Positions 14,939-33,216 of a DNA stretch of 64,000 nt are shown here, one piece after another. The translations under genes and the position numbers were made by a program. A model generated the notes under the pieces. That model was not told the DNA's origin, did no database searches, and saw nothing but the letters and a program-made list of their open reading frames with translations. Numbering within the stretch: position 1 is the first letter of the stretch; each line of letters opens with the position of its first letter. The stretch is taken from positions 32,050 to 96,049 of the forward strand of contig CASFAV010000003.1 in assembly GCA_949292905.1 (NCBI GenBank), read 5' to 3'. The stretch is from an uncultured Eubacteriales bacterium (GTDB taxonomy: Bacteria > Bacillota > Clostridia > Christensenellales > DTU072).

Positions 14939-15069
14939 ATATAGACGACTTACCGTTGCGGCGCTTGCCGGTTCGCTCCGAAGTTCTATAAGCCCGTTCT
15001 ACGATTCGTAGAGAGATATTTGAGACTTTACTCTTGTGCGGTGCGGACGCGCTATTATATAATCGGTAT

Positions 15070-15840
15070 ATGGAGACTTCGATGGACAAAAACAAAGATA
15101 TGACAGCCGCTAACGTTAAAGCGTTGCGCGAAGAAAAAGGCTGGACTCAAGCCGAACTGGGCGAGAAACTTTTCGTATCGGATAAGCTCGTCAGCAAGTG
15201 GGAGAGAGGGGAGAGCGTGCCCGACACGGATACCGTGGTAAGACTTGCGGAGCTTGCCGGGAAAAGCGTGGGCGAGTTTACGGGCGGCGAAAAACTTTGG
15301 TCGGAAGAAAACGTGACCGCGCCGGCAGTGAAGCGCCGACTCGTCTACAATGCGGTTTCGTTTATAGCCGATCTCGGTATCGTAGCGTTTCTGGTCGCAA
15401 TGTGGGCGATAGCGATCATGAAGTATTCGTCGCTTCCCGAAGTCATAGGGATACATTTCGGTCTGAACGGCGAAGCGGACGGTTTCGGCGGCAAAGGCTT
15501 CGTGTTCCTCATGCCCGCTTTGTCTACCGCCGCCGCGGCGGCGGCAATACTGTTTAACTCCGTCAAAATGCGATGGTCTATAAACCTCGTCGTCCCCGTT
15601 TATCTCGATACCGTGGCTGAGGGCAAAGAGTACGAAAAGCTCCTTAAAATAATGTCGATCGGCGTGAATATCACGATATTGCTCATTGTCGCCATGTTTT
15701 TTCAGGCGGCATATTCGGTAGCGATGCAGGTGAGGATCGTGATGTGGCTGTATTTAGGCTGGATAGGTCTGATAGTCGTGACGGTCTTCGCGTGCGTCGC
15801 GGCGGGTATCGCCGTTGTCAAAACGCGTGAAGAAAAGTAA
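15070..15840 (+). CDS. Membrane-tethered XRE-family HTH regulator with DUF1648-like region
   Basis: The N-terminal HTH is 'LREEKGWTQAELGEKLFVSDKLVSKWERGESVP'. This is followed by 4-5 TM helices and 'IGIHFGLNGEADGFGGKG'. The start is uncertain (ATG at 15070 or 15082). Confidence 0.7.
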   Translation: METSMDKNKDMTAANVKALREEKGWTQAELGEKLFVSDKLVSKWERGESVPDTDTVVRLAELAGKSVGEFTGGEKLWSEENVTAPAVKRRLVYNAVSFIADLGIVAFLVAMWAIAIMKYSSLPEVIGIHFGLNGEADGFGGKGFVFLMPALSTAAAAAAILFNSVKMRWSINLVVPVYLDTVAEGKEYEKLLKIMSIGVNITILLIVAMFFQAAYSVAMQVRIVMWLYLGWIGLIVVTVFACVAAGIAVVKTREEK

Positions 15841-15846
15841 ACTTCT

Positions 15847-16581
15847 ATGGAACTCAACGAGAAGATCAAGGCGTTAAGGACCAGGCGAGGGCTCACGCAG
15901 AAAGAGCTTGCCTCGGCGATAGGCGTTTCCGATAAAACCGTAAGTAAATGGGAATGCGGAAGGGGCGGGATAGCGCTAAAAGAAGCGTTGAAGATCGCAG
16001 AAGCGCTCGGCGCGCATATAGACGATCTTCTGCCCGTAGGCGCGGTTGCGAACAAGGAGTTTTTTCCTCATAAAATTACGATGAGTCCGCTGTCGAAAAT
16101 ATTGCTTACGCTCGCGGCAGCGCTCACGGCGGCTTCGCTTGTATGGATGGCTGTGCTTACGGCGCACGCTTACGAAGCGAGTATGCTTATCGGCTGGTTG
16201 CACGCGTGCTTCGGCGTATTGCTGTTTGCGGCGGCGATCGTCGTATTCGCCGTGAGATATCGCGCCGACAGCGTTACGGCTTCGTGCTTCGGGAAGCTCA
16301 AACCGTTGCAGATACGTTCCGTTTATAATCTTAAAAAGGCGTATGCGCTCGCGGGCGAAACCGTTTCGCTCGCCGTCTGCGTTCTCGAGGCGGCGCAGTT
16401 TGCGGGAGTGGCGTTCGTCGCTACGGGCGCAGCTTACGCGATATCCGTGTCCGTAAGAATAGTCTTGTTGCTGTCTGCTTTTGCGGGCGCCGCGACGTTA
16501 TACTATGTCAAATTCGCAAAAATACGCCGTGACGAAAGCATTATACGTTCGACTTTGGATAGCGGCGTGCTACAGGAATAA
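15847..16581 (+). CDS. Membrane-tethered XRE-family HTH regulator
   Basis: The HTH is 'LRTRRGLTQKELASAIGVSDKTVSKWECG', followed by about four hydrophobic helices. Confidence 0.7.
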   Translation: MELNEKIKALRTRRGLTQKELASAIGVSDKTVSKWECGRGGIALKEALKIAEALGAHIDDLLPVGAVANKEFFPHKITMSPLSKILLTLAAALTAASLVWMAVLTAHAYEASMLIGWLHACFGVLLFAAAIVVFAVRYRADSVTASCFGKLKPLQIRSVYNLKKAYALAGETVSLAVCVLEAAQFAGVAFVATGAAYAISVSVRIVLLLSAFAGAATLYYVKFAKIRRDESIIRSTLDSGVLQE

Positions 16582-19219: not shown

Positions 19220-19549
19220 ATGAAAAGAAAAGTAGTACTCAACATCAGTGGTCAGAAAGCCATTTCCGAAGAGATCGAGATGGAAGCCGTCATCTATAAG
19301 GATCTTGCGCGCCTCGCGCCCAAATATCCCAATACTTTCGGCAGGGCAGACGACAGCAACTCTTACGCCTATAAGCTGATCAACGTCACGTTCGACAAGA
19401 ATCAGTCCACGGTCAAGCTAACCTGTAAAGACGGCGCCAGAATGGCGTTGGACATGATGCTCCCGTGGAATCAGGCGGAATCCGAGTTCGCAAAGATCAA
19501 CGGAGCCGCCGACGTCGAGCTCACGCTCGCAGGTACGGTAGGCGATTGA
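19220..19549 (+). CDS. Small protein, candidate ubiquitin-like modifier (C-terminus ...ELTLAGTVGD)
   Basis: This 109-aa protein is the first gene of the operon, with RBS AAGGAG. It shows an alternating beta/alpha pattern. The last strand-like segment, 'VELTLAGTVGD', has a penultimate Gly. The call rests on context only. Confidence 0.45.
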   Translation: MKRKVVLNISGQKAISEEIEMEAVIYKDLARLAPKYPNTFGRADDSNSYAYKLINVTFDKNQSTVKLTCKDGARMALDMMLPWNQAESEFAKINGAADVELTLAGTVGD

Positions 19550-19551
19550 AA

Positions 19552-19580
19552 GGCTGCGGGCTCGGGTAAAGCCCGCAGCC
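19552..19580 (+). promoter_or_regulatory. Intercistronic 11-bp GC-rich stem-loop
   Basis: ggctgcgggct-cgggtaa-agcccgcagcc lies 3 nt after the stop of the first gene. No T-run follows it. Confidence 0.6.
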
Positions 19581-19611
19581 CGCAATCGCAAAAGTCAGGA
19601 GGTGAAGATCT

Positions 19612-20211
19612 ATGACCGGTATGGACGTTTACAGAATGCTTGCAAATACGATCAACGCCGCGTTGGGGTCCCCGGGCAATGTGTCGCTCGAGAGGACCGT
19701 AGACCAGAAATGCAAGATAATCATCAGCGATATTCCCGTATATCCTTCGGGGAAAGGGGGGTATCTGGTAGTTTATTTTCCGCTTGATTTCGTAAAAGTC
19801 GCGGGAAACAACGATCTTATCTGCAGAGAGCTTACGCAAAACGAGATACGGATATTCAACGGCAGCAGACCGGATACGAAAAAAGCGCTCGCGCATACCA
19901 ACGTTTTCGAAGACGGGCATCCTTGCTTGGGCGGTGGCGGCAGTTTGGTAAGGATATCCGGCGTTTACGATTTCGCCGCGTATATAGTGGAGTCCGTTCT
20001 GCGCGTAAACATGACGGAGCAAGCTTTTTTAAGCCCTGCCACACGGAAATACGGCGCAACCGTCGAGCAGATGAGAGCGTTCAAGGTAAAGGTCAGGCGC
20101 ATGCTTGCCTCGAGTTTCCGCGAACGCGTTATGAATCAGGTCGATCATTCCCAGATATACAGATACGTTCGGGAATATTTCAACGATCAATATTGCGCTA
20201 ATATCGGGTGA
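19612..20211 (+). CDS. E2 (UBC)-like conjugating enzyme, divergent
   Basis: 199 aa. 'AHTNVFEDGHPCLGGGG' mirrors the eukaryotic E2 active-site pattern HPN-x(5-8)-G-x-I-C-L. The candidate catalytic residue is Cys105 (nt 19924-19926). It is preceded by 'YPSGKGGYLVVYFPLDF'. RBS AGGAGG. Confidence 0.65.
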   Translation: MTGMDVYRMLANTINAALGSPGNVSLERTVDQKCKIIISDIPVYPSGKGGYLVVYFPLDFVKVAGNNDLICRELTQNEIRIFNGSRPDTKKALAHTNVFEDGHPCLGGGGSLVRISGVYDFAAYIVESVLRVNMTEQAFLSPATRKYGATVEQMRAFKVKVRRMLASSFRERVMNQVDHSQIYRYVREYFNDQYCANIG

Positions 20212-20215
20212 CGTT

Positions 20216-21199
20216 ATGAAAAAAGTTATTATCGACACAAGGTTATACGAAGATATACTTACTTTCGGCGAAAAATACGATTCGTTTTGCGTTAAACTCA
20301 GCTGTTCGCTCGTAAAGCTGAACGAAAACGCGGAACTTTACGCTTGCGTGAGAGGCGGGGAAGGGATACCTTGTCCCGTCTATCTTGCCGACAGTCGTAT
20401 GCGCGCGGAAGAAAACCGGAACGCCGATGCGTGCGACAAATGGATCGAAGCGATACGTAGAGCGGATACCGCGGAGCTCAAGTTCTATGAGAAGACCGCA
20501 GACGGCGTCACCGGCGTAGAGGTCATCGCAGGCGAGCATACGCTCAGGATCGCCAAACCGTTAGCCGCGACAATGCGGCGACTGTCTACCGAGCGGAATA
20601 AAGTGATAATAATTTCGCACGAAAAGCGTTACGAAGAAGCGGATAAGGCGGAATTTCAGAGCCGTAGCGTGCTCTCGCTGGCCGAACTGGATTCTTCCGC
20701 GGTCGACATCGTATATTTCGAAGGAGCGGATAAGCTTTTGGAGAAATTGTTGTACGCCGGCTGCAGAGAGCTCAACGTATTCGTTCCCCATACCCGAAAC
20801 GACAAAAATATTGTCAAGACGCTCAGAAAATTAAGTAAAAAGGCTCCGTTCGGTAACCGTATCGCCGTTGCGATAGGTAACGATTACGAGCCCGGCAGTT
20901 GTTGTAAGCTCATAGTGGGACCGGCCGAAAGGATAGCCGGGTGTAACGCTTATAAAGTGTTCTTTTCCACGGCATACAATGGAGAACTCGGAAAGTTCGT
21001 CTACGTGGGGCAGAATACCGCAGACCTTATCCCGGAGCAAACGCGGTACCGCCTTAAGCCGCATACCGTTCATTACATAACTTCCGTCATGAGCGAACTC
21101 ATCTTGGCAGCGCTTTCGGAGAAGAAGTATTCGTCCGGTAGGCTGTATACGGTCAAAGCCAACGATCTTACCACAGAAACGATTTATAAGGAGGATTAA
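20216..21199 (+). CDS. Hypothetical protein, Rossmann-like; possibly a degenerate E1-like domain
   Basis: This 327-aa gene lies 4 nt after the E2 gene. 'KVIIISHEKRY' sits where an E1 would carry GxGxxG. 'VDIVYFEGADKLLEKLLYAGC' and the C-terminal 'HYITSVMSELILAALSEK' loosely parallel ThiF-fold segments. This is weak, by-eye similarity only. Confidence 0.3.
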   Translation: MKKVIIDTRLYEDILTFGEKYDSFCVKLSCSLVKLNENAELYACVRGGEGIPCPVYLADSRMRAEENRNADACDKWIEAIRRADTAELKFYEKTADGVTGVEVIAGEHTLRIAKPLAATMRRLSTERNKVIIISHEKRYEEADKAEFQSRSVLSLAELDSSAVDIVYFEGADKLLEKLLYAGCRELNVFVPHTRNDKNIVKTLRKLSKKAPFGNRIAVAIGNDYEPGSCCKLIVGPAERIAGCNAYKVFFSTAYNGELGKFVYVGQNTADLIPEQTRYRLKPHTVHYITSVMSELILAALSEKKYSSGRLYTVKANDLTTETIYKED

Positions 21200-21202
21200 A
21201 CC

Positions 21203-21865
21203 ATGTTCGTAATTGCCGTTCAGACGGAATTGAAGTCTCTTGCAAATTGTGCGGAGACTAACGTAATGACAAGAAGCGGTTATCAGATAGTGACGGATCA
21301 CGAAGTCTATTTCGTCAGCAAAGAACGCTTCCTCAATAAATACAAGGGTAATCTTTATATGGTGCCTTCAGCAAAAGACAGACTGCTTACTTTCGAAGAA
21401 GCGAGCGTATTAAGGAGCGCTATCGAAGAACTCGAGAGCGGTAAGCTGATCAAAGTCAAGGGGAAAAACCGCTACGAAAAGTTTGACAGGGACGGAGCCA
21501 ATTACAGTATATCGCTCCCGTCGTCCGACGTTGAGATAGAGGCTAAAGCCATACGTTGCGAATTCAGCGGAAACAACAGCAACCTCCGCGTCAAGACCGA
21601 GAATTCCGCGCTTGACGCGACCGCATCCAATTCGACCTTCGATATTTCGGCAAACGATACCGTAGCCACCATGTACGTTTCCAACTGCTTCATCGAGTTG
21701 AGCGGAGTGGGCTTAAAAGTGATGATCGTCGGAAACAACAATACCGTTAGCGGTATTACCGACGGGATCGAAGTTTTTTCGAGGGGCAGAAAAAACGAAT
21801 TCCGCAGAAAGTCGGAAGCCACGAGTGAGGATACCTCCAAACGCAATATCCGAGGAGGACGATAA
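21203..21865 (+). CDS. Hypothetical protein with beta-helix-like repeats and a basic disordered tail ending RGGR
   Basis: 220 aa with RBS AGGAGG 8 nt upstream. Residues ~115-195 are short N/S/T/V-rich repeats, bactofilin or beta-helix-like by eye. The tail is 'RKSEATSEDTSKRNIRGGR'. The stop overlaps the next ATG (TAATG). Confidence 0.5.
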   Translation: MFVIAVQTELKSLANCAETNVMTRSGYQIVTDHEVYFVSKERFLNKYKGNLYMVPSAKDRLLTFEEASVLRSAIEELESGKLIKVKGKNRYEKFDRDGANYSISLPSSDVEIEAKAIRCEFSGNNSNLRVKTENSALDATASNSTFDISANDTVATMYVSNCFIELSGVGLKVMIVGNNNTVSGITDGIEVFSRGRKNEFRRKSEATSEDTSKRNIRGGR

Positions 21866-23463
21866 TGGATAAAAAAGCCTTGGTTTATATGCCTAAATCC
21901 TGTTACGACAGAATGATAAAGCATATTTATATCGATCCTTCCAACGAGTGCGGCGGCTATTTGATAGGGAACCGCGTCGATCTCGACAACGCTTATGTCT
22001 TTTCCGTGAGGGAGCTGTACAGCGAGGTGCGTTTCGGGACGCAGAGCCGCTTCGAATTCAAGTTGGATTATACCTCGAACGCGCAGGAATTTACAAGGAA
22101 GTGGCAGAGAGCGCGTCGTTGCGACGATTTTCTGGTTGGGACGTATCATTCGCACGGGACGTTCGACGCATTCCACAGCAGCGTCGACGACGTATTCGCG
22201 AGACTTTTCAACCTTATGATCATTCTGAGTCCCGCGACCGGCAGGATAGAAGTATGGTATTGGTGCCTCGGGCTCGCGCAATGGTTCGAGGGAGAACTAA
22301 TAGTATACGACGACGAGGAAAATGACGGGAAACGGCGTCCCGTCTACGTCGAAGAAAGCGAGCTTTGTTCCGGTAAGGAAAAATTCCGTATGCGCATATT
22401 TCGCAGGAACAAAAAAGAGCTCGCGCCGCAAAAGAAGGTCCTGATAGTCGGCTGCGGAACTCTCGGCAACCTGCTCGCGGAGCATTTAATAGACGCTAGG
22501 CACAATGCCGAGATCACCTTCATCGACAGAGACCGTTACGAGACAGCCAATCTCCCGCGCAGTCCCGTTATAGACGCGACGGCGGTAGGCAGCCCCAAGG
22601 CGTTCGCGCTTGCCGAAGCGGTCGCGAGGGAAGCGCGAATGTCCTACGCCGTAAGAGGAATAATAGGGGACGTAAGAGAATTTTCGCTTGATTTTTTCGA
22701 GCAATTCGACGTAATAGTCACCCCTTTAGATAACCTCGAATGCAGGTATTACGTCAATTATTGCGCTACCGTTCTCAATAAAGCTTACGTCAATCTCGGT
22801 ACTTCGTATACGGGATTTAACGGACTGCCTTTATTCGGCGGAGACGTATTCTATAAGCCCTTCCGGGCTACGACGTGCCTGGATTGCTTTTACCTCCTGT
22901 ACAGAGGAAACGAGGAGATGCTCCGTAAGCGCGTGTCGTGCGGAGGCGCTCTGCCCGAGAAGGTGGTCCCGCAAGTCATCTCTTCGTCTATGCTGATAGC
23001 TTCGATCGCTTTCGTGTGTCTTAAGAAAGCTCTGAGGCACGACCGATCCACGGTGGCGACAGGCTATAACATAAACGACGTAAGCGCGTCCTACGACAGG
23101 TTTTTCAATGTCGCCCCCGTAAGGACGAGCGCCCGATGCAGCTTTGCCGCGGCACACGCTGAGAGCGACGGGATAGAGACTATAGAGATATCCGCCGGAA
23201 CGCATCTGCGTACGTTATATCGGCGCGTGCGCAAAATATTCAATGACAAAACCGAAGACAAAGTTTACGAGATAAACATGATGTCGTCGTGCCTTACGCA
23301 GGTCAAATACCGTACCGAGAATCCCATTCATTCGATAACCCTCGACAAAGAGAGTATCGGACGGATGCGCGACGTCATTCGCTACGATTATTTTCCAGCA
23401 GACCATATATACGCGGTCAGCTCCGCGGAGAACGTCAAATATATCCGTATAAAATTAAGATAA
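21865..23463 (+). CDS. JAB/JAMM isopeptidase fused to E1-like (ThiF/MoeB-fold) adenylating enzyme
   Basis: 532 aa. The JAMM motif is complete: Glu28 ('NECGG') and H95-S-H97-x7-S105-x2-D108 (nt 22147-22188). The E1 half has 'VLIVGCGTLGN' (GxGxxG, nt 22450-22467), 'FIDRDRYETANLPRS', 'PLDNLECRYYVNYC', the pair C338xxC341 and 'VSC359GG'. Confidence 0.85.
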   Translation: MDKKALVYMPKSCYDRMIKHIYIDPSNECGGYLIGNRVDLDNAYVFSVRELYSEVRFGTQSRFEFKLDYTSNAQEFTRKWQRARRCDDFLVGTYHSHGTFDAFHSSVDDVFARLFNLMIILSPATGRIEVWYWCLGLAQWFEGELIVYDDEENDGKRRPVYVEESELCSGKEKFRMRIFRRNKKELAPQKKVLIVGCGTLGNLLAEHLIDARHNAEITFIDRDRYETANLPRSPVIDATAVGSPKAFALAEAVAREARMSYAVRGIIGDVREFSLDFFEQFDVIVTPLDNLECRYYVNYCATVLNKAYVNLGTSYTGFNGLPLFGGDVFYKPFRATTCLDCFYLLYRGNEEMLRKRVSCGGALPEKVVPQVISSSMLIASIAFVCLKKALRHDRSTVATGYNINDVSASYDRFFNVAPVRTSARCSFAAAHAESDGIETIEISAGTHLRTLYRRVRKIFNDKTEDKVYEINMMSSCLTQVKYRTENPIHSITLDKESIGRMRDVIRYDYFPADHIYAVSSAENVKYIRIKLR

Positions 23464-23474
23464 GGAGGACTACA

Positions 23475-23987
23475 ATGAAATACGCAATACTCGTATGCAA
23501 TCAAAGAGATAGATTCCAATGCGCTGAATGTAATAAATTGACTTCCGCCGGCTATCAATTAGTCGACGATAACGAAACGAAGTTCGTTTGCAGTGAGTGT
23601 TATTCGGACTTTATGCGGCAGTATCCTCAACAAGGAAACAGCGTGAAGCAGCTTATTCCGGCCGAAGTGCTTTTTGCCGACGGGGACGTCGCGCGGAATA
23701 CCGTAGATGAAAGCGTCGAGTCCGTAGCGGAGGAAAGCTCCGGCTATATAGGAGAGCTCGTATCCGACGGTCACGGAGGGTGGCGCGAGCCCACGGCGGA
23801 AGAACTCGCGGCGATGAACGCGAGCGCGAACGCAGTTGACTACGGCGCTTCGTGTATAACTGAAGACACTCATGCCGTCAATATCCGTTATCGCTTCACT
23901 ACAGATAATAAACTCCAGATTATGTTACCCAAACGGTGTCGGATAGACGACAGAACCTACGAGATCGTCGTCACGACCACGGATTAA
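23475..23987 (+). CDS. Zinc-ribbon protein (4-Cys), candidate adaptor or E3-like factor
   Basis: I trimmed the track ORF to the ATG at 23475, preceded by AGGAGG. 170 aa with C16xxC19...C39xxC42 at the N-terminus, an acidic linker and a C-terminal beta-rich domain. Confidence 0.55.
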   Translation: MKYAILVCNQRDRFQCAECNKLTSAGYQLVDDNETKFVCSECYSDFMRQYPQQGNSVKQLIPAEVLFADGDVARNTVDESVESVAEESSGYIGELVSDGHGGWREPTAEELAAMNASANAVDYGASCITEDTHAVNIRYRFTTDNKLQIMLPKRCRIDDRTYEIVVTTTD

Positions 23988-23992
23988 AACGT

Positions 23993-24685
23993 ATGGACGA
24001 ACTCGAAAGATACAATAACCGTATCGACACGATCATTCCGCGCGAGACCGTGTTTCCGTGTTGCTTCGTGACTACGCCCAAGCAGATGTTTATGTCGCTT
24101 ATGGCGGGAGAAAGGGTGTGCTTTAAGGGATACAACGAAGCGGCGCGATATTATTTGCGGACTGCGGAAATATTCCGCAGTCTGTATGCGCCCGGTATGA
24201 GCGATTACGGCTTCGTCCTCGCGTTGAATAATTACATTGTGCGCAATATCCGTTACGATTACGACGTATTGACTAAAAAAACGCTTACGCCGGAAGATAT
24301 GGAAAGCTTCGAGATAGACGCTCCGCTTTTCAAGGGAAAGGGAGTATGCTCCGCCAAAAGCAAGTTTTTTTCGCTGCTGTGCGCGTTGGCCGATATCCGC
24401 ACGGTATTAGTGACGGGTTCTCTCAAGGGTTGTAAAGACGACTCGAGACACGCTTGGAACAAAGTGTTTCTGCAGAAGCCGGGCGATAGCGCGCCCAAAT
24501 GGTGGAATATCGACGTAACCAACAATCGCGTGCATCACCGTTTCGATCTCGGCTACAGAGATTATTTTCTTGTAACCGACAGAGAGATCATGCGCACGCA
24601 TTTTTTCATAGAATACGACGAAACCTTCGAATACAGGCAGATCAACCGTCTTGTCACCGGTTCTCTCGATTATCCTGCGGCGTGA
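23993..24685 (+). CDS. Transglutaminase-like cysteine protease-fold protein
   Basis: I trimmed the track ORF to the ATG at 23993. 230 aa with a Cys-His-Asp triad in the canonical spacing: 'GKGVC119SAKSKFF', 'SRH153AWNKV' and 'WWNID174VT'. Confidence 0.7.
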   Translation: MDELERYNNRIDTIIPRETVFPCCFVTTPKQMFMSLMAGERVCFKGYNEAARYYLRTAEIFRSLYAPGMSDYGFVLALNNYIVRNIRYDYDVLTKKTLTPEDMESFEIDAPLFKGKGVCSAKSKFFSLLCALADIRTVLVTGSLKGCKDDSRHAWNKVFLQKPGDSAPKWWNIDVTNNRVHHRFDLGYRDYFLVTDREIMRTHFFIEYDETFEYRQINRLVTGSLDYPAA

Positions 24686-26878: not shown

Positions 26879-29647
26879 TTAAATTAGCGTGTATTTAGCT
26901 TTTCTAACATTAAACGCTTCTTTACCACCTTCAAGAATTTCACATATATGCCCTTGAATACCGGTTTGATTTAAAATACCGCTTTTAATTGAACCATCGT
27001 CATTTCTAATTACCATATTGTTTTCAATAGCTCCGGATCGATATTCAAATCGATAAGTTTCATTAGGACTATTTGTACCTCTTTGGTTGGCAACAATAAT
27101 TTCTTCCGAATCGGCCCCAACAACAATATTAGCATTATGCGTAACTACAATTATTTGCCTATCATATTTCTTTTGTCGCAGAAAATTAACTAGTTCATAG
27201 TAAATTGAACGATTATCTAAATCATCTTCAGGTTGATCTATTAATATTGGGCAATCGGCATCTGCCAAGTTAATCAGCAATTTAAGTAAAACTAATGCTT
27301 TTTTGCCTGGAGACATCGTTTGAATTTTATCGTTATCAAGTTCAATCGTGTAAATAATGTTATACCAATTGGATAATATAGCACGTAAAGCCTCTTCAAT
27401 AGTAACGCTTTTCTTCAACAATGATTTTCCATTAAATTCAAATAATGGATGAATCAATTTCTCTATAATGTCCTCGCTGATATCGGCAGGATCAGCATCT
27501 TCATAAAAAGCATAGATTGTTTTCAGTTTTCTGTTATCAAATAAATCTCTTATTTTAGCGTCAAAAGCTTCTAGCCTAAATGGTGCCGTTGCAAGAAAAG
27601 TCATGGAACTATCAAGATTTGTTGCTTTTTCGTTTACAAAACTCGCATATTTTTGATGTAATTCATCAAAAATTGCTAGTTTGTGAACTATGCTATTTAA
27701 TAGATTTTCAAAAACCTGTGTTTGTGTTTGTACTTGTAAGGTCAATGTTTCAGATGTCTTAAGTTTTCGTTCTTCCTCCAATAACAATTCATTTGTGATC
27801 TTTAACGCTTCAGTTTTTTCAAGTAATTGTTCTTTTGTTTCTATTTCAGTCTTAAGTGTATCTAATTCACTATTAATTTTTTCAATTTCAGCATTTAAGT
27901 TAATTATTAATTCTTGTCTGGCATTATTCCATTTTGTAGCTATTTCGTTTGTGAAACCAGATATAACAGCATCGACCTTATGCAAACTATCCGCAGACAA
28001 TTCCTCGGATTCATTTGACATTTTTACAACTAAACCTAAATTTGAAAGAAGTTTAATGTCATTATGTTTTGTTTGCAGCAATTTAGATAATGTTGCAAAT
28101 TGTGTTTTGCATTGGTCATATTTCGTTATGTCTTCTTCGCTTATTTGTAATAGTTTTGTTATTCGATCTCGTTCCTTTTGCAGTTTTGCAATCTCTTTTT
28201 TTATTGAATCTACGCTACCATTTTCCGTAAGTTGTTGAGAATACTGCATAAGTAATTCATGTGCTTTAACAGTGTCATATATTTCTTTGTCCAAATCAGT
28301 TTTTGTTGTCTCTAAATCGCGCTGAAACTGACCAAAGGCTTCTTTAATATTCTCATCTTGCAAAATAATATCCTGTATGATCTCATCAATTTCCGTCTTT
28401 TCTTCTTGATTGTCACTTAAACTATTTAAATAGGTTTGTGGTATATACACAATATTCTTCTTATCAGTACCGTCGCTTATTGTTCCATCTTTCCAATAAA
28501 CCCTCATATTTTGAATAGTAAAATCTTTTCCGCTGTATTTAAGCTTATATTGGTCACAATCAATAAGTCGTGCCATATTGTTGAGAATTATTGATTTCCC
28601 GGTAGATTTCCCTCCAATGAAACAAGTTAGATTAGGATTAAAAACAATTGGTGCAGGGGAAAATCTATCGTCGCTGATTGTGATTTTATCGATTACATTA
28701 TAGTCTCTCTTTTTTTCAGGATGCACATCGCAAATTTTAACACGTTCTTGAGGTTCATAAATGATTTGTTTGAGTCCTTCAAAAGTGCAATCAGCTTTTA
28801 TCCAACAATATCTATTATTATCAGGAGACAGAATGTCAGAATTTTTATGCGCATCACAACCATGTACACATGGCTTCAAACGCCCATATTTTTGAACGAT
28901 TTCTTCTTTAGTGAGAGAACCTTCTCCAAGAAAATATTTAATAGAGCTTTCTGTAGCGGAAAAAATTATATCAGCAAAATAACATAGATCATCTCTAATT
29001 ACTGTCAAATCTGAGTTTACATTAGGACGAGAAGGATTGCCTATTCCTGAAGCGCCATCGTTCGAACTATTAGAAACAGCAACTATTACATTATCTCTTA
29101 AATCTTTATCATCCTCCAGTATCTTTTTAAGATTTGATAAATCAACTACAAATTGTTCAATACCTTTTTTGTATGCTGCTTCGTCATTTAGGGTGGTGTC
29201 ATATAGCTGACCAAGTTTAATGAAATCATCTTTAACAGCGTGAAAAGTCTGCCCATTACTATGCTTAAACGTTAACTGACTGAAAAGTTTTACATCCAAT
29301 TGAGAAACAATCATCGGATTGCAAATGAAATGTATGTTTATTGCTGCTTTACTTGAAACGGGAGTAATACGCATTTCAATATTTGGCAATATCAGCTCAA
29401 ATTTATCAGTTATTCTACTATCAGATATAACTTTTCTATAGTTGTCAATAGAAAAGTAATCGGTTATTCCCAATACCGCAACTTTTTTAGTTGGATCTTC
29501 GGAATTGATATATAATAAAATGTCCTCGTAAAATTTGTCCCATTTTTCTTGAGGCGTTGATCCCACAAATTGATCATTCTTCTTTGTTTGTGGAGTGTGT
29601 ATATGTAAATCCCAACGTCTCCATTCAGAACCACGGCAAAAATCCAT
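26879..29647 (-). CDS. PHP-domain phosphoesterase fused to coiled-coil ABC/SMC-like ATPase
   Basis: 922 aa. The N-terminus has 'WDLHIHTPQT' and 'LGITDYFS' (PHP-type His motifs). Walker A is 'FIGGKSTGKS'. A ~300-aa heptad-rich insert follows. Walker B/D-loop is 'ILIDQPEDDLD' and the H-loop is 'IVVTHNANIVV'. It is the last gene of the AT-rich operon. It may correspond to what pipelines label TrlF-like ATPase, which I could not verify. Confidence 0.7.
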   Translation of the reverse strand: MDFCRGSEWRRWDLHIHTPQTKKNDQFVGSTPQEKWDKFYEDILLYINSEDPTKKVAVLGITDYFSIDNYRKVISDSRITDKFELILPNIEMRITPVSSKAAINIHFICNPMIVSQLDVKLFSQLTFKHSNGQTFHAVKDDFIKLGQLYDTTLNDEAAYKKGIEQFVVDLSNLKKILEDDKDLRDNVIVAVSNSSNDGASGIGNPSRPNVNSDLTVIRDDLCYFADIIFSATESSIKYFLGEGSLTKEEIVQKYGRLKPCVHGCDAHKNSDILSPDNNRYCWIKADCTFEGLKQIIYEPQERVKICDVHPEKKRDYNVIDKITISDDRFSPAPIVFNPNLTCFIGGKSTGKSIILNNMARLIDCDQYKLKYSGKDFTIQNMRVYWKDGTISDGTDKKNIVYIPQTYLNSLSDNQEEKTEIDEIIQDIILQDENIKEAFGQFQRDLETTKTDLDKEIYDTVKAHELLMQYSQQLTENGSVDSIKKEIAKLQKERDRITKLLQISEEDITKYDQCKTQFATLSKLLQTKHNDIKLLSNLGLVVKMSNESEELSADSLHKVDAVISGFTNEIATKWNNARQELIINLNAEIEKINSELDTLKTEIETKEQLLEKTEALKITNELLLEEERKLKTSETLTLQVQTQTQVFENLLNSIVHKLAIFDELHQKYASFVNEKATNLDSSMTFLATAPFRLEAFDAKIRDLFDNRKLKTIYAFYEDADPADISEDIIEKLIHPLFEFNGKSLLKKSVTIEEALRAILSNWYNIIYTIELDNDKIQTMSPGKKALVLLKLLINLADADCPILIDQPEDDLDNRSIYYELVNFLRQKKYDRQIIVVTHNANIVVGADSEEIIVANQRGTNSPNETYRFEYRSGAIENNMVIRNDDGSIKSGILNQTGIQGHICEILEGGKEAFNVRKAKYTLI

Positions 29648-29677
29648 ACGAAGTATCTCCTTGGTGTATAGTGAGGT

Positions 29678-31264
29678 TTATTGATGTAAAAGGTCTACTA
29701 ATCGTTCATTGCTTGCTATGTCTTTTATAAACTCTTCGATCGCGTATGTTAGTATATCCACATTATACTGATATTTTGAATATCCTGCCATATACTTTGT
29801 GTCAGCATGGATAGCGGGCGCAACTAATATGGAAAACACAATTTTATCGGGATATTTAGTGACTGCCTCCTGTAAATGTCGTGTGATTGCCGGCATTTCC
29901 ATAGTTGCTTGAGTCCTTGCCGTAATCAAAGTTACTTCGACGAGTGGATTGCAATCCGTATCGAAGCACTCAATATCGGCTAGCCCACCCGATGCTGTGA
30001 AGGTTGGTAAGCCTTCGTCATCAACATGATAATTAGGACAAACCGTCAATCCTTCAAAGTTCTGTTTTAATGCGATACTGGTTAAGAATTCAAATCTTGT
30101 GGGTTTGTCAATAATCCTCAGTACGGGATTACGGCTTTCACCTCTTTTGCTACAAACGATAAGCAATTCGTTGAAAATTTCCTGTTTATCATAGTTTGTC
30201 GCCCACTCATTGAGGGTTCTTGTTCTAACATCATTGATGTTCTCTTCCTGAATGGTGGTAGTGGCCAGAATATGAGCGTCAATCGAGCCCATATACCTAA
30301 AATAATCTTCTTTGGAGGCATATCGGGTATAAGTACTATAATTTTCTAATATGTAGTTAATTTTATCTGCTTCAAATTGGTTAAAATCCAAGAAGCGACC
30401 ATTACCTCTGAGAGAGATTATACCTGTAATACGCATCTTGCGTATAAATTCATCAACAGCTTCGCCTGTAATCTGCTCAATTTTAAAGCGTTTCTTTTTA
30501 TCTTCACCCGCACCTAACAGTTGTAAGCAGTCATCATAAATGACTTCATCGCTATAATTGTAGCCATACTGAGCGCGTAATTCTTTGATTGTGCGGTAAA
30601 GCCGTTCAGCATCGTTATCAGGCCAGCAAATTATGAGCGATAATTCGCTTCTTAATATACCTGCATCGTTTTCGTTAGGATCTTCCTTCAAAAGTTTTAT
30701 AACCTGAAGCAAGAGAACGAGCGGGACATTATCATTTGCATTCTTTCTGAATGGATTGCTTGTCTGATACTTCATCAGTGCATTCAAAAAGACATTCTGT
30801 ATCTTTGAATCGTTGGCGGGAACTTCATTAAAAGCATCTATCAGCATGTGTCCCGTTTGGGAGATTATAATTTGCTTACCCATTTCATAATAGATAAAGC
30901 CGAACTCCATAGACAGCTTGTACCAAGTGTCAAATCGAGAATCCCATCCTTTTTCAAAGCCAGCTTCTTTATGGTCTTGCGGGCTATTTGCTATAATGTC
31001 TTCAACTTGTTCACGAGTAAAAGAAAGCTCATCACTTTTATATATCCTTTTATATTCTGGCACTTTCATTTCATACTTTTCGGTATAGTACAATTTTGCC
31101 ATAATTAAATTAACTGCAACCTCGTGAATAATATCGCTCGTTAAAACATGACCTTCATACGGTAAAATACAATTTAAGAACGCCGCTATACGAGCAGGGT
31201 TACGCATGGTGGTAGAGAATGAAAGTGGTTTGTATTCTTTTCGTCTTTCTTTTGCCATAGACAC
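29678..31264 (-). CDS. AlwI/BstNBI-family type II(S) restriction endonuclease
   Basis: 528 aa. The N-terminus 'LSFSTTMRNPARIAAFLNCILPYEG' and the catalytic region 'ASGGLADIECF...LVEVTLITARTQATMEMPAITRHL' parallel the N.BstNBI/AlwI-family segments I recall ('AAGNQPDMEIIY...LGEVTTSKGATQFKMESEPVTRHYL'). It lies 1 nt downstream of two MTase genes. Confidence 0.65.
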   Translation of the reverse strand: MSMAKERRKEYKPLSFSTTMRNPARIAAFLNCILPYEGHVLTSDIIHEVAVNLIMAKLYYTEKYEMKVPEYKRIYKSDELSFTREQVEDIIANSPQDHKEAGFEKGWDSRFDTWYKLSMEFGFIYYEMGKQIIISQTGHMLIDAFNEVPANDSKIQNVFLNALMKYQTSNPFRKNANDNVPLVLLLQVIKLLKEDPNENDAGILRSELSLIICWPDNDAERLYRTIKELRAQYGYNYSDEVIYDDCLQLLGAGEDKKKRFKIEQITGEAVDEFIRKMRITGIISLRGNGRFLDFNQFEADKINYILENYSTYTRYASKEDYFRYMGSIDAHILATTTIQEENINDVRTRTLNEWATNYDKQEIFNELLIVCSKRGESRNPVLRIIDKPTRFEFLTSIALKQNFEGLTVCPNYHVDDEGLPTFTASGGLADIECFDTDCNPLVEVTLITARTQATMEMPAITRHLQEAVTKYPDKIVFSILVAPAIHADTKYMAGYSKYQYNVDILTYAIEEFIKDIASNERLVDLLHQ

Positions 31265-31265
31265 C

Positions 31266-32186
31266 TCAATAATTTTTTACAAGAACTTCGTAAGTATCCT
31301 TTTCGCTATTGTCATTAAAACTTATATAATTGCTTTGAATACGCACGATATTATATTTCTGTGCCCAATAATTGAACGTACCGTTATATTTCCTTCTGTG
31401 CCATAGCACGTTTGACACGGCAAAACGTATATGCCGTTCGTTTAATTCATCGAGGACTTTAATAAGACGCATTTCGCTATCTTCGTTCCACAACTTGTTA
31501 TATTCACTGAATGTAATAAGATATGGCGGATCAAGATATACAAAATCTTTTTCAGTAAGTTCAAGAGAATTGAGGAAATCTTCAAAATCCATACTGAATA
31601 GAGAGATGTCTTTATCTTTTACATACTCAAAATATGAGTTAAGTGCGTCGACCACATTCTCGTTGAAATCTACATTCCCTACGGGAAGATTAAAGTCGCC
31701 CTTCCCATTAAAACGCAACATACGGTTAAATCCATAAATCAGTAACAGATAAAGGAGCATCATATCTGTCTTATCGGCATTGAAATCTGTTCTTAATTGC
31801 GTATAAGCTTCTTTATTGTATTTGGCAAAATAAGTTTTAGGGAATTGTGTGCGCAATTCTTTCGGCACAGTCTTTCCCATGTATGTGGCAGATAGGGCAT
31901 ACTTGTTTATGATTGTATTGATACTATCCCAGAACTTGACTTGATTCTTACTATAAGCAATAAGAAACTTATGCAATGAAATCATATATGAATCAATGTC
32001 ATTAAGGATATATTGATTTGCCTTAGTATTTAAGAAAACGCTGCCGCCCCCACAAAAAGGCTCAACAAACTTGTCAATATCTTTAGGGAAATTATCTTTT
32101 AGCTGCGATAGCAACTTAAATTTATCTCCAACGTAGAAAAATGGTGAACGACGAAACTCTGTTTTTACTGTTACATTCTTTTTCAT
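31266..32186 (-). CDS. D12-class (Dam-like) N6-adenine DNA methyltransferase
   Basis: 306 aa with 'FYVGDKFKL', motif I 'FVEPFCGGGSVFLN' and motif IV 'VYLDPPY'. Confidence 0.85.
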   Translation of the reverse strand: MKKNVTVKTEFRRSPFFYVGDKFKLLSQLKDNFPKDIDKFVEPFCGGGSVFLNTKANQYILNDIDSYMISLHKFLIAYSKNQVKFWDSINTIINKYALSATYMGKTVPKELRTQFPKTYFAKYNKEAYTQLRTDFNADKTDMMLLYLLLIYGFNRMLRFNGKGDFNLPVGNVDFNENVVDALNSYFEYVKDKDISLFSMDFEDFLNSLELTEKDFVYLDPPYLITFSEYNKLWNEDSEMRLIKVLDELNERHIRFAVSNVLWHRRKYNGTFNYWAQKYNIVRIQSNYISFNDNSEKDTYEVLVKNY

Positions 32187-32187
32187 T

Positions 32188-33216
32188 TTAATTAACCTTA
32201 ACTAAAAAGATAAATTCTTTGTGTTCCGTAAAATCTGTTTTGCCGGCATTAAAAAAGGAATGTTCCTTTTCGAAACAAGTCAGTTCACCTTTGGTTTTCA
32301 GCACATCTTTTATATTTTCAAGCGTCATCTTGTTTCGTGATGAGGTGCTTTTTGAGGCATAGGTGTTATTATAAGAAACAACTATATACTTGCATTGCAA
32401 ATCACGTATTAAATCAGCAAAAGCTTGGAGGGCACCGCTTCGGCAATACTCGCTCATATTCTCAGGTTCTGGCTTCAACGCTTCACCATATAGTTTTGGC
32501 TTTTTCCAAGTTGTCAAGTTTTCTAAGACATGATAAAAACGGCTGTATTGTCTTGAATTATAAGGCGGATCAATATAAACGATATCAACGCTCAAAGATT
32601 TTGCTAAAATATTTGCGTCTTCACGGTGAATTTCGATTTCTGCCGTTGTGGCGTATGGGGAAATTAGGTCAAACTTGAAAGTATCAGGTATATTATGACC
32701 TTTTATATAAGCGTCATAATGTCCGACAGTGTTTGCCGCTTTATCTGCAGAGTATAAAAGTGAGGCGATCAAAATAGCCCGTTCTTTTTCATTAACATCA
32801 TTTATAGAATCAATGACATCTCTTATTGCTCCAATATGTAACGCATCGGCATAAGAGAAAAACTTATTACTATAATTTATAGAAGCGTAGTTATCTTTAA
32901 TAGATGAGGTATCAATATTTTGAAAATTGGTTTTATAGTTATTTATCTTATTGACATCGAACGGTTCTTGCAGAAAGAACGCCTTATAGATAATTTCATT
33001 TGAATAAAGGAAGTCGTTGATGACGACCTTTTGCATATTTTTTATTGCGTGTTGAGCTATTATCCCTGTGCCGGCAAAAATATCACAAAAAGAACTTCCC
33101 GTACAGTGACTATTTATTAAATCAAAAATCCAATCAGCAAGCTTAAATTTACTTCCTGTATATCGCCTATTCCATATTTCAAAAGACATGCTTCTTACGC
33201 TCATATTATTATCCAA
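32188..33216 (-). CDS. D12-class N6-adenine DNA methyltransferase (second MTase)
   Basis: 342 aa with 'RRYTGSKFKL', motif I 'CDIFAGTGII' and motif IV 'VYIDPPYNSRQY'. Confidence 0.85.
   Translation of the reverse strand: MDNNMSVRSMSFEIWNRRYTGSKFKLADWIFDLINSHCTGSSFCDIFAGTGIIAQHAIKNMQKVVINDFLYSNEIIYKAFFLQEPFDVNKINNYKTNFQNIDTSSIKDNYASINYSNKFFSYADALHIGAIRDVIDSINDVNEKERAILIASLLYSADKAANTVGHYDAYIKGHNIPDTFKFDLISPYATTAEIEIHREDANILAKSLSVDIVYIDPPYNSRQYSRFYHVLENLTTWKKPKLYGEALKPEPENMSEYCRSGALQAFADLIRDLQCKYIVVSYNNTYASKSTSSRNKMTLENIKDVLKTKGELTCFEKEHSFFNAGKTDFTEHKEFIFLVKVN

What the first reader, a model, noticed from the sequence alone, without database searches (positions are those of the whole stretch)
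21865..23463. Single polypeptide joining a JAMM deconjugase to an E1 activating enzyme
Seen: both halves retain complete catalytic motifs. The JAMM metal site lies at nt 22147-22188. The E1 half has its glycine-rich loop at 22450-22467 and the Asp/Arg of 'FIDRDRYETANLPRS'. It also has the CxxC pair C338/C341 and Cys359, in the position of the ThiF/MoeB/E1 catalytic loop.

Established: in type II CBASS the fusion is E2-E1 (Cap2) with a separate JAB (Cap3). In Bil systems all four activities are separate.

Inference: physically coupling C-terminal trimming (or deconjugation) to adenylation suggests the JAB half first exposes a Gly on a precursor and hands it directly to the E1 site. Candidate precursors are VG|D in gene 1 or RGG|R in gene 4.
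Basis: partly seen in the sequence, partly recalled or inferred. Interest (0 to 1): 0.72.

Follow-up and report, generated by a model that had tools for sequence, protein, structure and literature searches.

The report
JAB–E1 fusion in ubiquitin-like operon
The gene is a real fusion of a trimming protease and an activating enzyme; this design is already known in bacteria, but here it sits in a rare, apparently undescribed seven-gene ubiquitin-like tagging operon.

Summary
The 532-aa ORF at 21865-23463 carries an intact JAMM/JAB protease domain and an intact E1 adenylation domain.

The novelty claim is wrong. N-terminal JAB–E1 fusions were described in 2006 (operon type 6e). In Type I Bub (BubCD) the JAB half was shown to cut a precursor after Gly so the E1 half can adenylate it.

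The operon around the fusion is the new part:
- Gene 1 (19220-19549) is a predicted β-grasp protein. It has an invariant C-terminal Gly108 followed by 0-3 variable residues.
- Gene 2 (19612-20211) is an E2-like protein with an invariant HTN…C motif spaced as in UbcH5.
- The E1 keeps an invariant crossover-loop Cys359.
- A zinc-ribbon protein and a transglutaminase-like Cys-His-Asp protein complete the conserved core.

The operon fails four of five defining features of Bub. It also does not fit Bil, CBASS Cap2/Cap3 or 6A-MBL. The family is very rare: 22 clusters among 1.84 billion representatives. It occurs near defence and mobile-element genes. Gene 4's RGG|R is not conserved and is rejected as a substrate. 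The conjugation target and the biological role are unknown.

The parts
19220..19549 (+). Gene 1: 109-aa ubiquitin-like (β-grasp) modifier precursor. Invariant Gly108 (codon 19541-19543) is followed by a one-residue tail, D109.
   Evidence: The alignment A2 shows invariant LAGxVG followed by 0-3 variable residues. The AlphaFold2 model has pLDDT 79.8 and pTM 0.75, with β-β-α-β-β-α-β order. The top Foldseek PDB hits are all β-grasp/Ubl domains: Ring1B RAWUL at 5e-4, TBCE Ubl, ISG15, ubiquitin and Hub1. There is no Pfam, NCBIfam or PADLOC hit.
19612..20211 (+). Gene 2: 199-aa E2-like (UBC-like) protein. The candidate catalytic residue is Cys105 (codon 19924-19926), within an HTN…GxPC motif.
   Evidence: H95-T-N97-x4-G102-H-P-C105-L is invariant. 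The H-to-C spacing matches UBE2D2 H75PN…C85. hhalign aligns exactly these segments, with P=0.0012 but only 19% probability. The AF2 model (pLDDT 74, pTM 0.79) has helix, β-meander, loop and helices in that order. The top Foldseek hits are UbcH5b, UbcH8 and UbcH7, but at weak E-values of 0.03-1. H…PC is conserved in distant homologues that sit next to related E1s.
20216..21199 (+). Gene 3: 327-aa protein of unknown function. It is an accessory gene, absent from distant relatives.
   Evidence: It is syntenic in L001 and L004-L007. It has no Pfam or PDB hit. Its resemblance to the E1 Rossmann region is not significant (hhalign 1-3%).
21203..21865 (+). Gene 4: 220-aa accessory protein. The N-terminus is a cysteine-less paralogue of the gene 6 zinc ribbon. 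The C-terminal RGGR is not conserved.
   Evidence: hhalign of g4 against g6 N-termini gives 92.8% probability, E 4e-7. The C-termini of orthologues differ, and L006 has only a 90-aa version.
21865..23463 (+). Gene 5: the finding itself, a 532-aa JAB–E1 fusion. JAB is roughly residues 1-135 (E28; H95xHx7Sx2D108 at nt 22147-22188). A linker follows. The E1 adenylation domain is roughly residues 185-400: GxGxxG at 22450-22467, R232, K245, D289, C338xxC341 at 22876-22887, and crossover Cys359 at 22939-22941. A conserved C-terminal domain spans roughly residues 400-532.
   Evidence: Supported by Pfam, the alignment A1 and a PDB profile search. In that search the E1 half best matches UBA6, UBA1, UBA3 and SAE2 (about 1e-10), and the JAB half best matches Rpn11 (3e-6). 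The start codon overlaps the gene 4 stop by one base.
23475..23987 (+). Gene 6: 170-aa protein with an N-terminal CxxC…CxxC zinc ribbon and a conserved C-terminal domain. It belongs to the conserved core.
   Evidence: It is syntenic in all close loci. Zinc-ribbon proteins occupy the same position in distant loci L012, L013, L014 and L016. Only weak Zn-ribbon Pfam hits were found.
23993..24685 (+). Gene 7: transglutaminase-like (papain-fold) protein, about 230 aa, with an intact Cys-His-Asp triad. It belongs to the conserved core.
   Evidence: Pfam Transglut_core scores 1.7e-10. C119, H153 and D174 are invariant, including in the distant L002 and L013 proteins. The ATG at 23993 matches the orthologue start sites.

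Best explanation
Gene 5 is the combined processing protease and activating enzyme of a cysteine-based (thioester-type) bacterial ubiquitin-like conjugation operon, genes 1-7 at 19220-24685.

Proposed path:
1. The JAB domain removes the short variable tail after Gly108 of the gene 1 β-grasp protein. It probably also reverses conjugates.
2. The E1 domain adenylates Gly108 and takes it onto crossover-loop Cys359.
3. The modifier passes to Cys105 of the gene 2 E2-like protein, and from there to a lysine on an unknown target.
4. The zinc-ribbon protein (gene 6) and the transglutaminase-like Cys-His-Asp protein (gene 7) are conserved partners. They may act as a specificity factor and a second peptidase or ligase.

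The system is most likely a defence or mobile-element conflict module.

Shown here by computation: the domain identities, the invariant catalytic residues, the conserved Gly with variable tail, the predicted β-grasp fold, the synteny and the rarity. Inferred: every chemical step, the target and the biological role.
For: - **Domains and motifs:**
- **Modifier:** gene 1 is a predicted β-grasp with an invariant terminal Gly and a variable 0-3 residue tail.
- **E2:** the HxN…C motif has the same spacing as UbcH5, and E2s dominate the fold-search ranking.
- **E1 cysteine:** Cys359 is conserved in relatives at 25-32% identity, whereas the CxxC is lost in L002.
- **Operon structure:** genes are tightly packed or overlapping, and order is conserved in L001 and L004-L007.
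- **Minimal core:** a small Gly/Ala-terminated protein, the E2-like protein and the E1 recur in distant loci.
- **Precedent:** a JAB fused to an E1 cleaves its Ubl precursor after Gly in BubCD (PMC11601596). The standalone JAB BilC trims one residue after Gly in Bil (PMC10557695).
- **Context:** a Ppl-like gene and a type II R-M island lie 2 kb away. A T4SS coupling protein, a serine recombinase, a WYL-type regulator and a kinase-Card1 gene lie next to relatives.
Against: - There is no experimental evidence for any step.
- The E2 assignment rests on a motif and on weak structural matches (Foldseek E 0.03-1; hhalign probability 19%). The active-site loop of the model has pLDDT below 50.
- Homology between gene 1 and the small Gly-terminated proteins of distant loci is not statistically supported (hhalign 1.4%).
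- Two distant relatives end in Ala, not Gly.
- No target or effector is evident, and no known defence-system model matches beyond generic E1/JAB hits.
- The promoter and terminator scans are not above chance.
- The defence context is suggestive only.
Confidence: 0.6

Rival explanations
1. The JAB half is mainly a deconjugase or brake, like CBASS Cap3, and not a maturation protease. It removes the modifier from targets to limit or reset the system. Tail removal is incidental or is done by the transglutaminase-like protease.
For: Several orthologues of gene 1 already end exactly at the Gly (P0033, P0037, P0038, L004, L005, L006), yet the JAB is fully conserved. Distant relatives carry up to two extra JAB proteins. 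A second conserved thiol peptidase-like protein, gene 7, is available.
Against: Most orthologues, including the window's, carry a tail that must be removed before adenylation. In BubCD and BilC the JAB performs this cut. The two roles are not exclusive.
Confidence: 0.25
2. The operon is a sulfur-carrier or small-molecule biosynthesis system of the ThiS/MoaD/CysO or PdtFGH type. The β-grasp protein would be thiocarboxylated by the E1 and unmasked by the JAB, with no protein conjugation.
For: Associations of JAB, E1 and ThiS/MoaD-like proteins in sulfur metabolism are well known (Iyer 2006, table rows 4a-4e). ThiF/MoeB NCBIfam models hit the E1 half, though far below their cut-offs.
Against: The operon has no rhodanese, cysteine synthase, ThiG, MoaE or any other biosynthetic gene. 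An E2-like protein with an invariant Cys is conserved next to the E1. The E1 profile matches eukaryotic conjugating E1s (1e-10) better than MoeB (1e-7). The family is rare, sporadic and linked to mobile elements.
Confidence: 0.07
3. It is a diverged Type I Bub (6E.1) operon that works through oxyester (Tyr/Ser) intermediates.
For: It shares the N-terminal JAB–E1 architecture with BubCD.
Against: It has no Ubl–E2 fusion and no DUF6527/BubE. The E1 has an invariant crossover Cys, and no Tyr is conserved across the family. The E2-like protein has an invariant Cys, not Ser. BubCD is not among the PDB sequence matches.
Confidence: 0.03

Closest known systems
Type I Bub (6E.1) BubCD, JAB/JAMM–E1 fusion (Ye, Gong, Chambers & Corbett 2024, PMC11601596; operon type 6e of Iyer et al. 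2006, PMC1779556)
   Same: It has the same domain order: N-terminal JAB, then a C-terminal ThiF-type E1. Its demonstrated logic is the one inferred here: the JAB cuts after a conserved Gly of the Ubl precursor and the E1 adenylates that Gly.
   Different: The Bub E1 lacks a catalytic Cys and uses a Tyr. The Bub E2 uses Ser. The Bub Ubl is fused to the E2 (BubAB), and the operon has a DUF6527 serine protease. Here the E1 and E2 have invariant Cys residues. The Ubl is a separate gene with a 0-3 residue tail. The partners are a zinc-ribbon protein and a transglutaminase-like protein. No sequence match to BubCD was found in the PDB.
Bil systems (BilABCD; operon types 6C/6D; Chambers et al. 2023, PMC10557695)
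   Same: It has a separate Ubl, a Cys-based E2 and a thioester-type E1. Its JAB peptidase trims one residue after the Ubl's Gly. It functions in defence.
   Different: The Bil JAB (BilC) is a standalone protein. [quoted passage not shown] Here there is one adenylation domain with a crossover-loop Cys, fused to the JAB, and the accessory genes differ.
Type II CBASS Cap2/Cap3 and the 6A-MBL triple fusion (E2–E1–JAB)
   Same: They combine E1, E2 and JAB activities in a bacterial defence context, partly as fusions.
   Different: Cap2 is an E2–E1 fusion with a separate JAB, and its substrate is a CD-NTase. 6A is an E2–E1–JAB fusion paired with a metallo-β-lactamase. Neither partner is present here. 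The NCBIfam 6A-MBL model scores 39.5 bits against a cut-off of 320.
Minimal homodimeric E1s with a crossover-loop cysteine (UBA5, MoeB/ThiF) and Rpn11-type JAMM proteases
   Same: The position of Cys359 matches the crossover-loop Cys of ThiF, MoeB and UBA5 (my own knowledge of those families, plus the alignment pattern CxxC…C…QV). The JAB half's best sequence match is Rpn11.
   Different: These are not fused to each other. The E1 here has an extra conserved C-terminal domain of about 130 residues whose fold is unknown.

Membership tests
JAMM/MPN+ metalloprotease | Catalytic Glu plus an HxHx7Sx2D zinc site | tested here: met
   E28, H95, H97, S105 and D108 are invariant in 15 sequences. Prok-JAB scores E 2.1e-12.
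E1/ThiF adenylation domain | GxGxxG nucleotide loop, Arg finger (NLxR), Lys, and the Mg-binding Asp of 'LDN' | tested here: met
   G196xG198xxG201, R232, K245 and D289 are invariant. ThiF scores E 3.6e-22.
Thioester-forming E1 | Conserved cysteine in the crossover loop | tested here: met
   C359 is invariant in the close family and conserved in relatives at 25-32% identity. The chemistry itself is not testable here.
β-grasp ubiquitin-like modifier (gene 1) | β-grasp fold with an exposed or exposable C-terminal Gly | tested here: met
   The AF2 model has pLDDT 79.8. Foldseek top hits are all Ubl/β-grasp domains, at E 5e-4 to 1e-2. Gly108 is invariant and followed by a variable tail.
UBC/E2 (gene 2) | UBC fold with HPN-type motif and catalytic Cys about 10 residues downstream | tested here: inconclusive
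   The motif H95-T-N97…C105 is invariant with the same spacing as UBE2D2. For the fold, E2s top the Foldseek list, but at E 0.03-1 and TM 0.3-0.4, and the active-site loop has low confidence.
Type I Bub (6E.1) | JAB–E1 fusion | tested here: met
Type I Bub (6E.1) | Ubl–E2 fusion (BubAB) | tested here: not met
   The Ubl and the E2-like protein are separate genes, with 62 nt between them.
Type I Bub (6E.1) | DUF6527 (PF20137) serine protease BubE in the operon | tested here: not met
   No such Pfam hit was found on any of the seven genes.
Type I Bub (6E.1) | E1 without a crossover Cys and with an invariant Tyr instead | tested here: not met
   Cys359 is invariant. No Tyr is conserved across the broad family.
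Type I Bub (6E.1) | E2 with catalytic Ser | tested here: not met
   Cys105 is invariant at the E2 active-site position.
Bil (BilABCD) | Standalone JAB (BilC) and a multidomain IAD–AAD–CYS E1 (BilD) | tested here: not met
   The JAB is fused to the E1, and there is a single ThiF stretch.
Type II CBASS | Cap2 E2–E1 fusion, a CD-NTase and an effector in the operon | tested here: not met
   The E2-like protein is a separate gene. There is no CD-NTase or effector hit. PADLOC E1-E2 models match only the Rossmann region.
6A-MBL | E2–E1–JAB triple fusion plus a metallo-β-lactamase | tested here: not met
   NF058523 scores 39.5 bits against a cut-off of 320. There is no MBL gene.
ThiS/MoaD sulfur-carrier systems | Partner sulfur-transfer or biosynthetic enzymes (rhodanese, ThiG, MoaE, cysteine synthase) | tested here: not met
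   None is present in the operon.

The most novel reading that the evidence does not exclude
The seven-gene operon defines a previously undescribed, very rare family of bacterial ubiquitin-like conjugation systems. Its chemistry would be canonical, eukaryote-like thioester chemistry, with an E1 closest in sequence to UBA1, UBA6 and UBA3. A transglutaminase-like Cys protease or ligase and zinc-ribbon proteins would replace the RING, CEHH or DUF6527 partners of known systems. It would act as a new anti-phage or anti-plasmid mechanism carried on mobile elements of gut Firmicutes.
Probability: 0.4. Interest if true: 0.65.

Novelty: new variant of a known kind. Interest (0 to 1): 0.45.

Why it matters
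The JAB–E1 fusion itself adds nothing new. It repeats an architecture known since 2006 and dissected biochemically in 2024.

The value lies in the operon. It would add a further family of bacterial ubiquitination-like systems to CBASS type II, Bil, Bub and 6A-MBL.

- It combines the Bub-style fusion with Bil-style cysteine chemistry.
- It brings two unexplored conserved partners: a zinc-ribbon protein and a transglutaminase-like thiol enzyme.
- Five of its seven proteins have no family assignment.
- It gives a compact, testable system with a 109-aa modifier, a 199-aa E2 and a single-chain protease-E1.

Such a system could be used to ask how E3-less or novel-E3 targeting works in bacteria, and how eukaryote-like E1-E2 thioester relays arose.

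Tried and rejected
1. **Gene 4 'RGG|R' as precursor: rejected.** The C-terminus is not conserved, one orthologue is truncated to 90 aa, and the gene is absent from distant loci.
2. **Gene 3 as an inactive E1-like partner (heterodimeric E1): not supported.** By eye, 'VDIVYFEGADKLLEKLLYAGCRELNVF' resembles the E1 Rossmann start. hhalign against the family E1 gave 0.2-2.7% probability, and against a 124-sequence E1-domain profile 1.2%. There is no PDB hit.
3. **Sequence searches of genes 1, 2 and 3 profiles against the PDB:** nothing meaningful.
4. **Homology of gene 1 to the small Gly-terminated proteins of distant loci:** not significant (hhalign 1.4%). Only position, size and C-terminus agree.
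5. **Extra 'E1-like' HMM hits in distant loci:** these turned out to be additional JAB proteins, not E1s.
6. **Species-representative genomes:** a single-sequence scan found nothing. The alignment scan found only two distant relatives, in a Faecalibacterium and an Oscillospiraceae MAG.
7. **tblastn against the plasmid and phage collections:** no match.
8. **Promoter and terminator scan of the operon:** counts not above shuffled expectation.
9. **Literature searches for a described operon combining JAB–E1, an E2 and a transglutaminase-like protein:** none found. This is absence in the searchable library, not proof that it is undescribed.
Full report
**1. Observation**

The + strand ORF 21865-23463 encodes 532 aa. 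Pfam places Prok-JAB on residues 10-128 (E 2.1e-12) and ThiF on residues 185-399 (E 3.6e-22). PADLOC and NCBIfam give only generic JAB and E1 hits, far below any family cut-off.

- nt 22147-22188 encodes H95-S-H97-G-T-F-D-A-F-H-S105-S-V-D108, the JAMM HxHx7Sx2D motif.
- nt 22450-22467 encodes G196-C-G-T-L-G201.
- FIDRDRYETANLPRS is residues 219-233.
- C338, C341 and C359 exist.

A search of 5.8 billion proteins returned only 16 homologues, and all carry both domains. In the 15-sequence alignment A1 (42-90% identity) these residues are invariant: E28, H95, H97, S105, D108, G196, G198, G201, D221, D223, N229, R232, K245, D289, C338, C341 and C359.

**2. The fusion is not new**

[quoted passage not shown] Ye et al. 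(2024, PMC11601596) renamed 6e as Bub. They showed that the JAB domain of the BubCD fusion cleaves the BubAB precursor immediately after a conserved Gly. The E1 domain then adenylates that Gly. The proposed mechanism is already demonstrated for another JAB–E1 fusion.

**3. The operon around the fusion**

Seven genes are tightly packed on the + strand, with gaps of -1 to 62 nt:

| Gene | Coordinates | Length |
|---|---|---|
| g1 | 19220-19549 | 109 aa |
| g2 | 19612-20211 | 199 aa |
| g3 | 20216-21199 | 327 aa |
| g4 | 21203-21865 | 220 aa |
| g5 | 21865-23463 | 532 aa |
| g6 | 23475-23987 | 170 aa |
| g7 | 23993-24685 | about 230 aa |

The same order recurs in independent contigs L001 and L004-L007. 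Only g5 and g7 (Transglut_core, 1.7e-10) have Pfam matches.

*Gene 1.* Twelve orthologues share invariant …LAG[TVI]VG108. A tail of 0-3 unconserved residues follows: D, A, TN, VAV, RG, MI, SN or none. L001 has two tandem, near-identical copies that differ in the tail, INY versus LH. The AlphaFold2 model (pLDDT 79.8, pTM 0.75) has the β-β-α-β-β-α-β order of a β-grasp, with an extra helical insert and a disordered C-terminal tail. The top 50 Foldseek PDB matches are mostly ubiquitin-like or β-grasp domains; the highest-ranked include Ring1B RAWUL (5e-4), the TBCE Ubl, ISG15, ubiquitin and Hub1. This is the signature of a ubiquitin-like modifier made as a short-tailed precursor.

*Gene 2.* Fourteen orthologues have invariant H95-T-N97-x4-G102-H-P-C105-L. 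The H-to-C distance of 10 residues equals that of UBE2D2, H75-P-N…C85. hhalign aligns precisely these segments (P = 0.0012, probability 19%) and gives a collinear global alignment. The AF2 model (pLDDT 74, pTM 0.79) shows an N-terminal helix, a β-meander, a loop and then helices. The motif loop itself has low confidence. The best Foldseek matches are UbcH5b, UbcH8, UbcH7 and Ube2e2, but at E-values of only 0.03-1. I call it E2-like, with the fold test inconclusive.

*Gene 5.* As a profile, the E1 half matches eukaryotic UBA6, UBA1, UBA3 and SAE2 best (about 1e-10 to 1e-9). MoeB (1e-7), MccB (1e-6) and Cap2 (3e-5) follow. The JAB half matches Rpn11 best (3e-6). BubCD does not appear among the matches. 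Residues 400-532 form a conserved extra domain of unknown fold.

*Gene 7.* It keeps an invariant Cys119-His153-Asp174 triad, even in distant relatives.

*Genes 4 and 6.* The g4 N-terminus is a cysteine-less paralogue of the g6 zinc ribbon (hhalign 92.8%).

**4. The wider family**

Metagenome and genome scans found relatives at 24-32% identity over the best aligned segment: L002, L010-L015 and L017, plus an E1-only match of 39% in L016. Where these contigs extend upstream of the E1 gene, they encode an E2-like g2 homologue beside it. Most also encode a small protein of about 110 aa that ends in …VVG, …IVG, …TAG+LFT or …VVA. Genes 3 and 4 are absent from these loci.

In L013 and L016 the E1 lacks the JAB, and JAB domains lie on separate proteins of the same operon. 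L011 and L014 have both the fusion and an additional JAB protein. The crossover-loop Cys is conserved throughout. The CxxC is lost in L002. The fusion is therefore a variable, 'Rosetta-stone' feature of the family.

An exhaustive HMM search of 1.84 billion cluster representatives found only 22 with E ≤ 1e-30. These are a mix of fusions of about 540-580 aa and E1-only proteins of about 370-440 aa. The family is very rare. There are no matches in the plasmid or phage collections.

**5. Context**

- In the window, a low-GC island (26.9-33.2 kb) lies 2 kb downstream. It carries a Ppl-like ATPase, an AlwI-type restriction enzyme and two Dam-class methyltransferases.
- L001 follows a T4SS coupling-protein gene.
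- L016 follows a large serine recombinase.
- L005 follows an HTH protein, a WYL-type regulator and an FtsH-like ATPase.
- L004 follows PP2C and kinase-Card1 genes.

This points to defence islands and mobile elements, but it is circumstantial.

**6. Mechanism (inferred)**

The JAB removes the tail after Gly108 of g1. The E1 adenylates Gly108 and forms a thioester at Cys359. The modifier is then transferred to Cys105 of g2 and conjugated to an unknown target. The JAB, and possibly g7, reverse conjugation. Because several orthologues have no tail yet keep the JAB, deconjugation is probably part of its role.

Rivals considered:
- A sulfur-carrier system. No partner enzymes are present, and an E2-like protein is.
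- Bub-type oxyester chemistry. Cys, not Tyr or Ser, occupies the key positions.
- A JAB that acts only as a deconjugase.

**7. Comparison and verdict**

The system works like BubCD in its fusion and its trimming logic. It works like Bil in having a separate Ubl and Cys-based E1 and E2. It fails four of the five defining features of Type I Bub. It does not meet those of Bil, Cap2/Cap3 or 6A-MBL (see the membership table). I found no description of this gene set in the searchable literature.

The finding as written (the fusion) is already known. The operon as a whole is best rated a new variant of a known kind, of moderate interest.

Noticed in passing
window 26879-33216 (- strand): A low-GC (0.32-0.37) defence island lies here. 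It holds a 922-aa protein with a PADLOC 'Ppl' hit (4e-16), an AlwI-like type II restriction endonuclease (29678-31264) and two Dam-class methyltransferases (31266-32186, 32188-33216). It starts about 2 kb from the end of the Ubl operon.
   Followed up: partly
L001 7034-7369 and 7393-7725: The Ubl gene is tandemly duplicated. The two copies are near-identical except for the residues after the conserved Gly (INY versus LH). In this contig the operon follows a T4SS coupling-protein (TraG/VirD4-like) gene.
   Followed up: partly
window 21203-21400 versus 23475-23680: The N-terminus of gene 4 is a paralogue of the gene 6 zinc ribbon that has lost its cysteines (hhalign 92.8%). In L006 gene 4 consists of this domain alone (90 aa).
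   Followed up: partly
L013 and L016 (metagenome relatives): Here the related E1 lacks the JAB domain, and two separate JAB proteins are encoded downstream. L016 also has two E2-like paralogues flanking the Ubl gene and a large serine recombinase immediately upstream.
   Followed up: partly
L011 11387-14119: In this relative the zinc-ribbon protein is 910 aa long. It carries GLUG, Fib_succ_major and TonB_C-like regions, so the C-terminal part of the zinc-ribbon partner varies between loci.
   Followed up: no
window 23065-23460 (gene 5 residues about 400-532): This is a conserved C-terminal domain of the E1 (motifs KYR…NPIHS and YFPxDH[IV]Y) with no family assignment. It could be a ubiquitin-fold-like E2-recruiting domain, but this was not tested.
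   Followed up: no
window 15034-16581: Two adjacent membrane proteins with XRE-type HTH domains lie upstream of the operon region. The first contains DUF1648. Any relation to the operon is unknown, and they are not conserved next to orthologous operons.
   Followed up: no
L005 1480-6126: Upstream of the orthologous operon lie an HTH protein, a WYL-like (WCX) regulator and a 965-aa FtsH-like AAA+/M41 protein. This recalls regulators and FtsH-linked Ubl systems described for other conflict systems.
   Followed up: no
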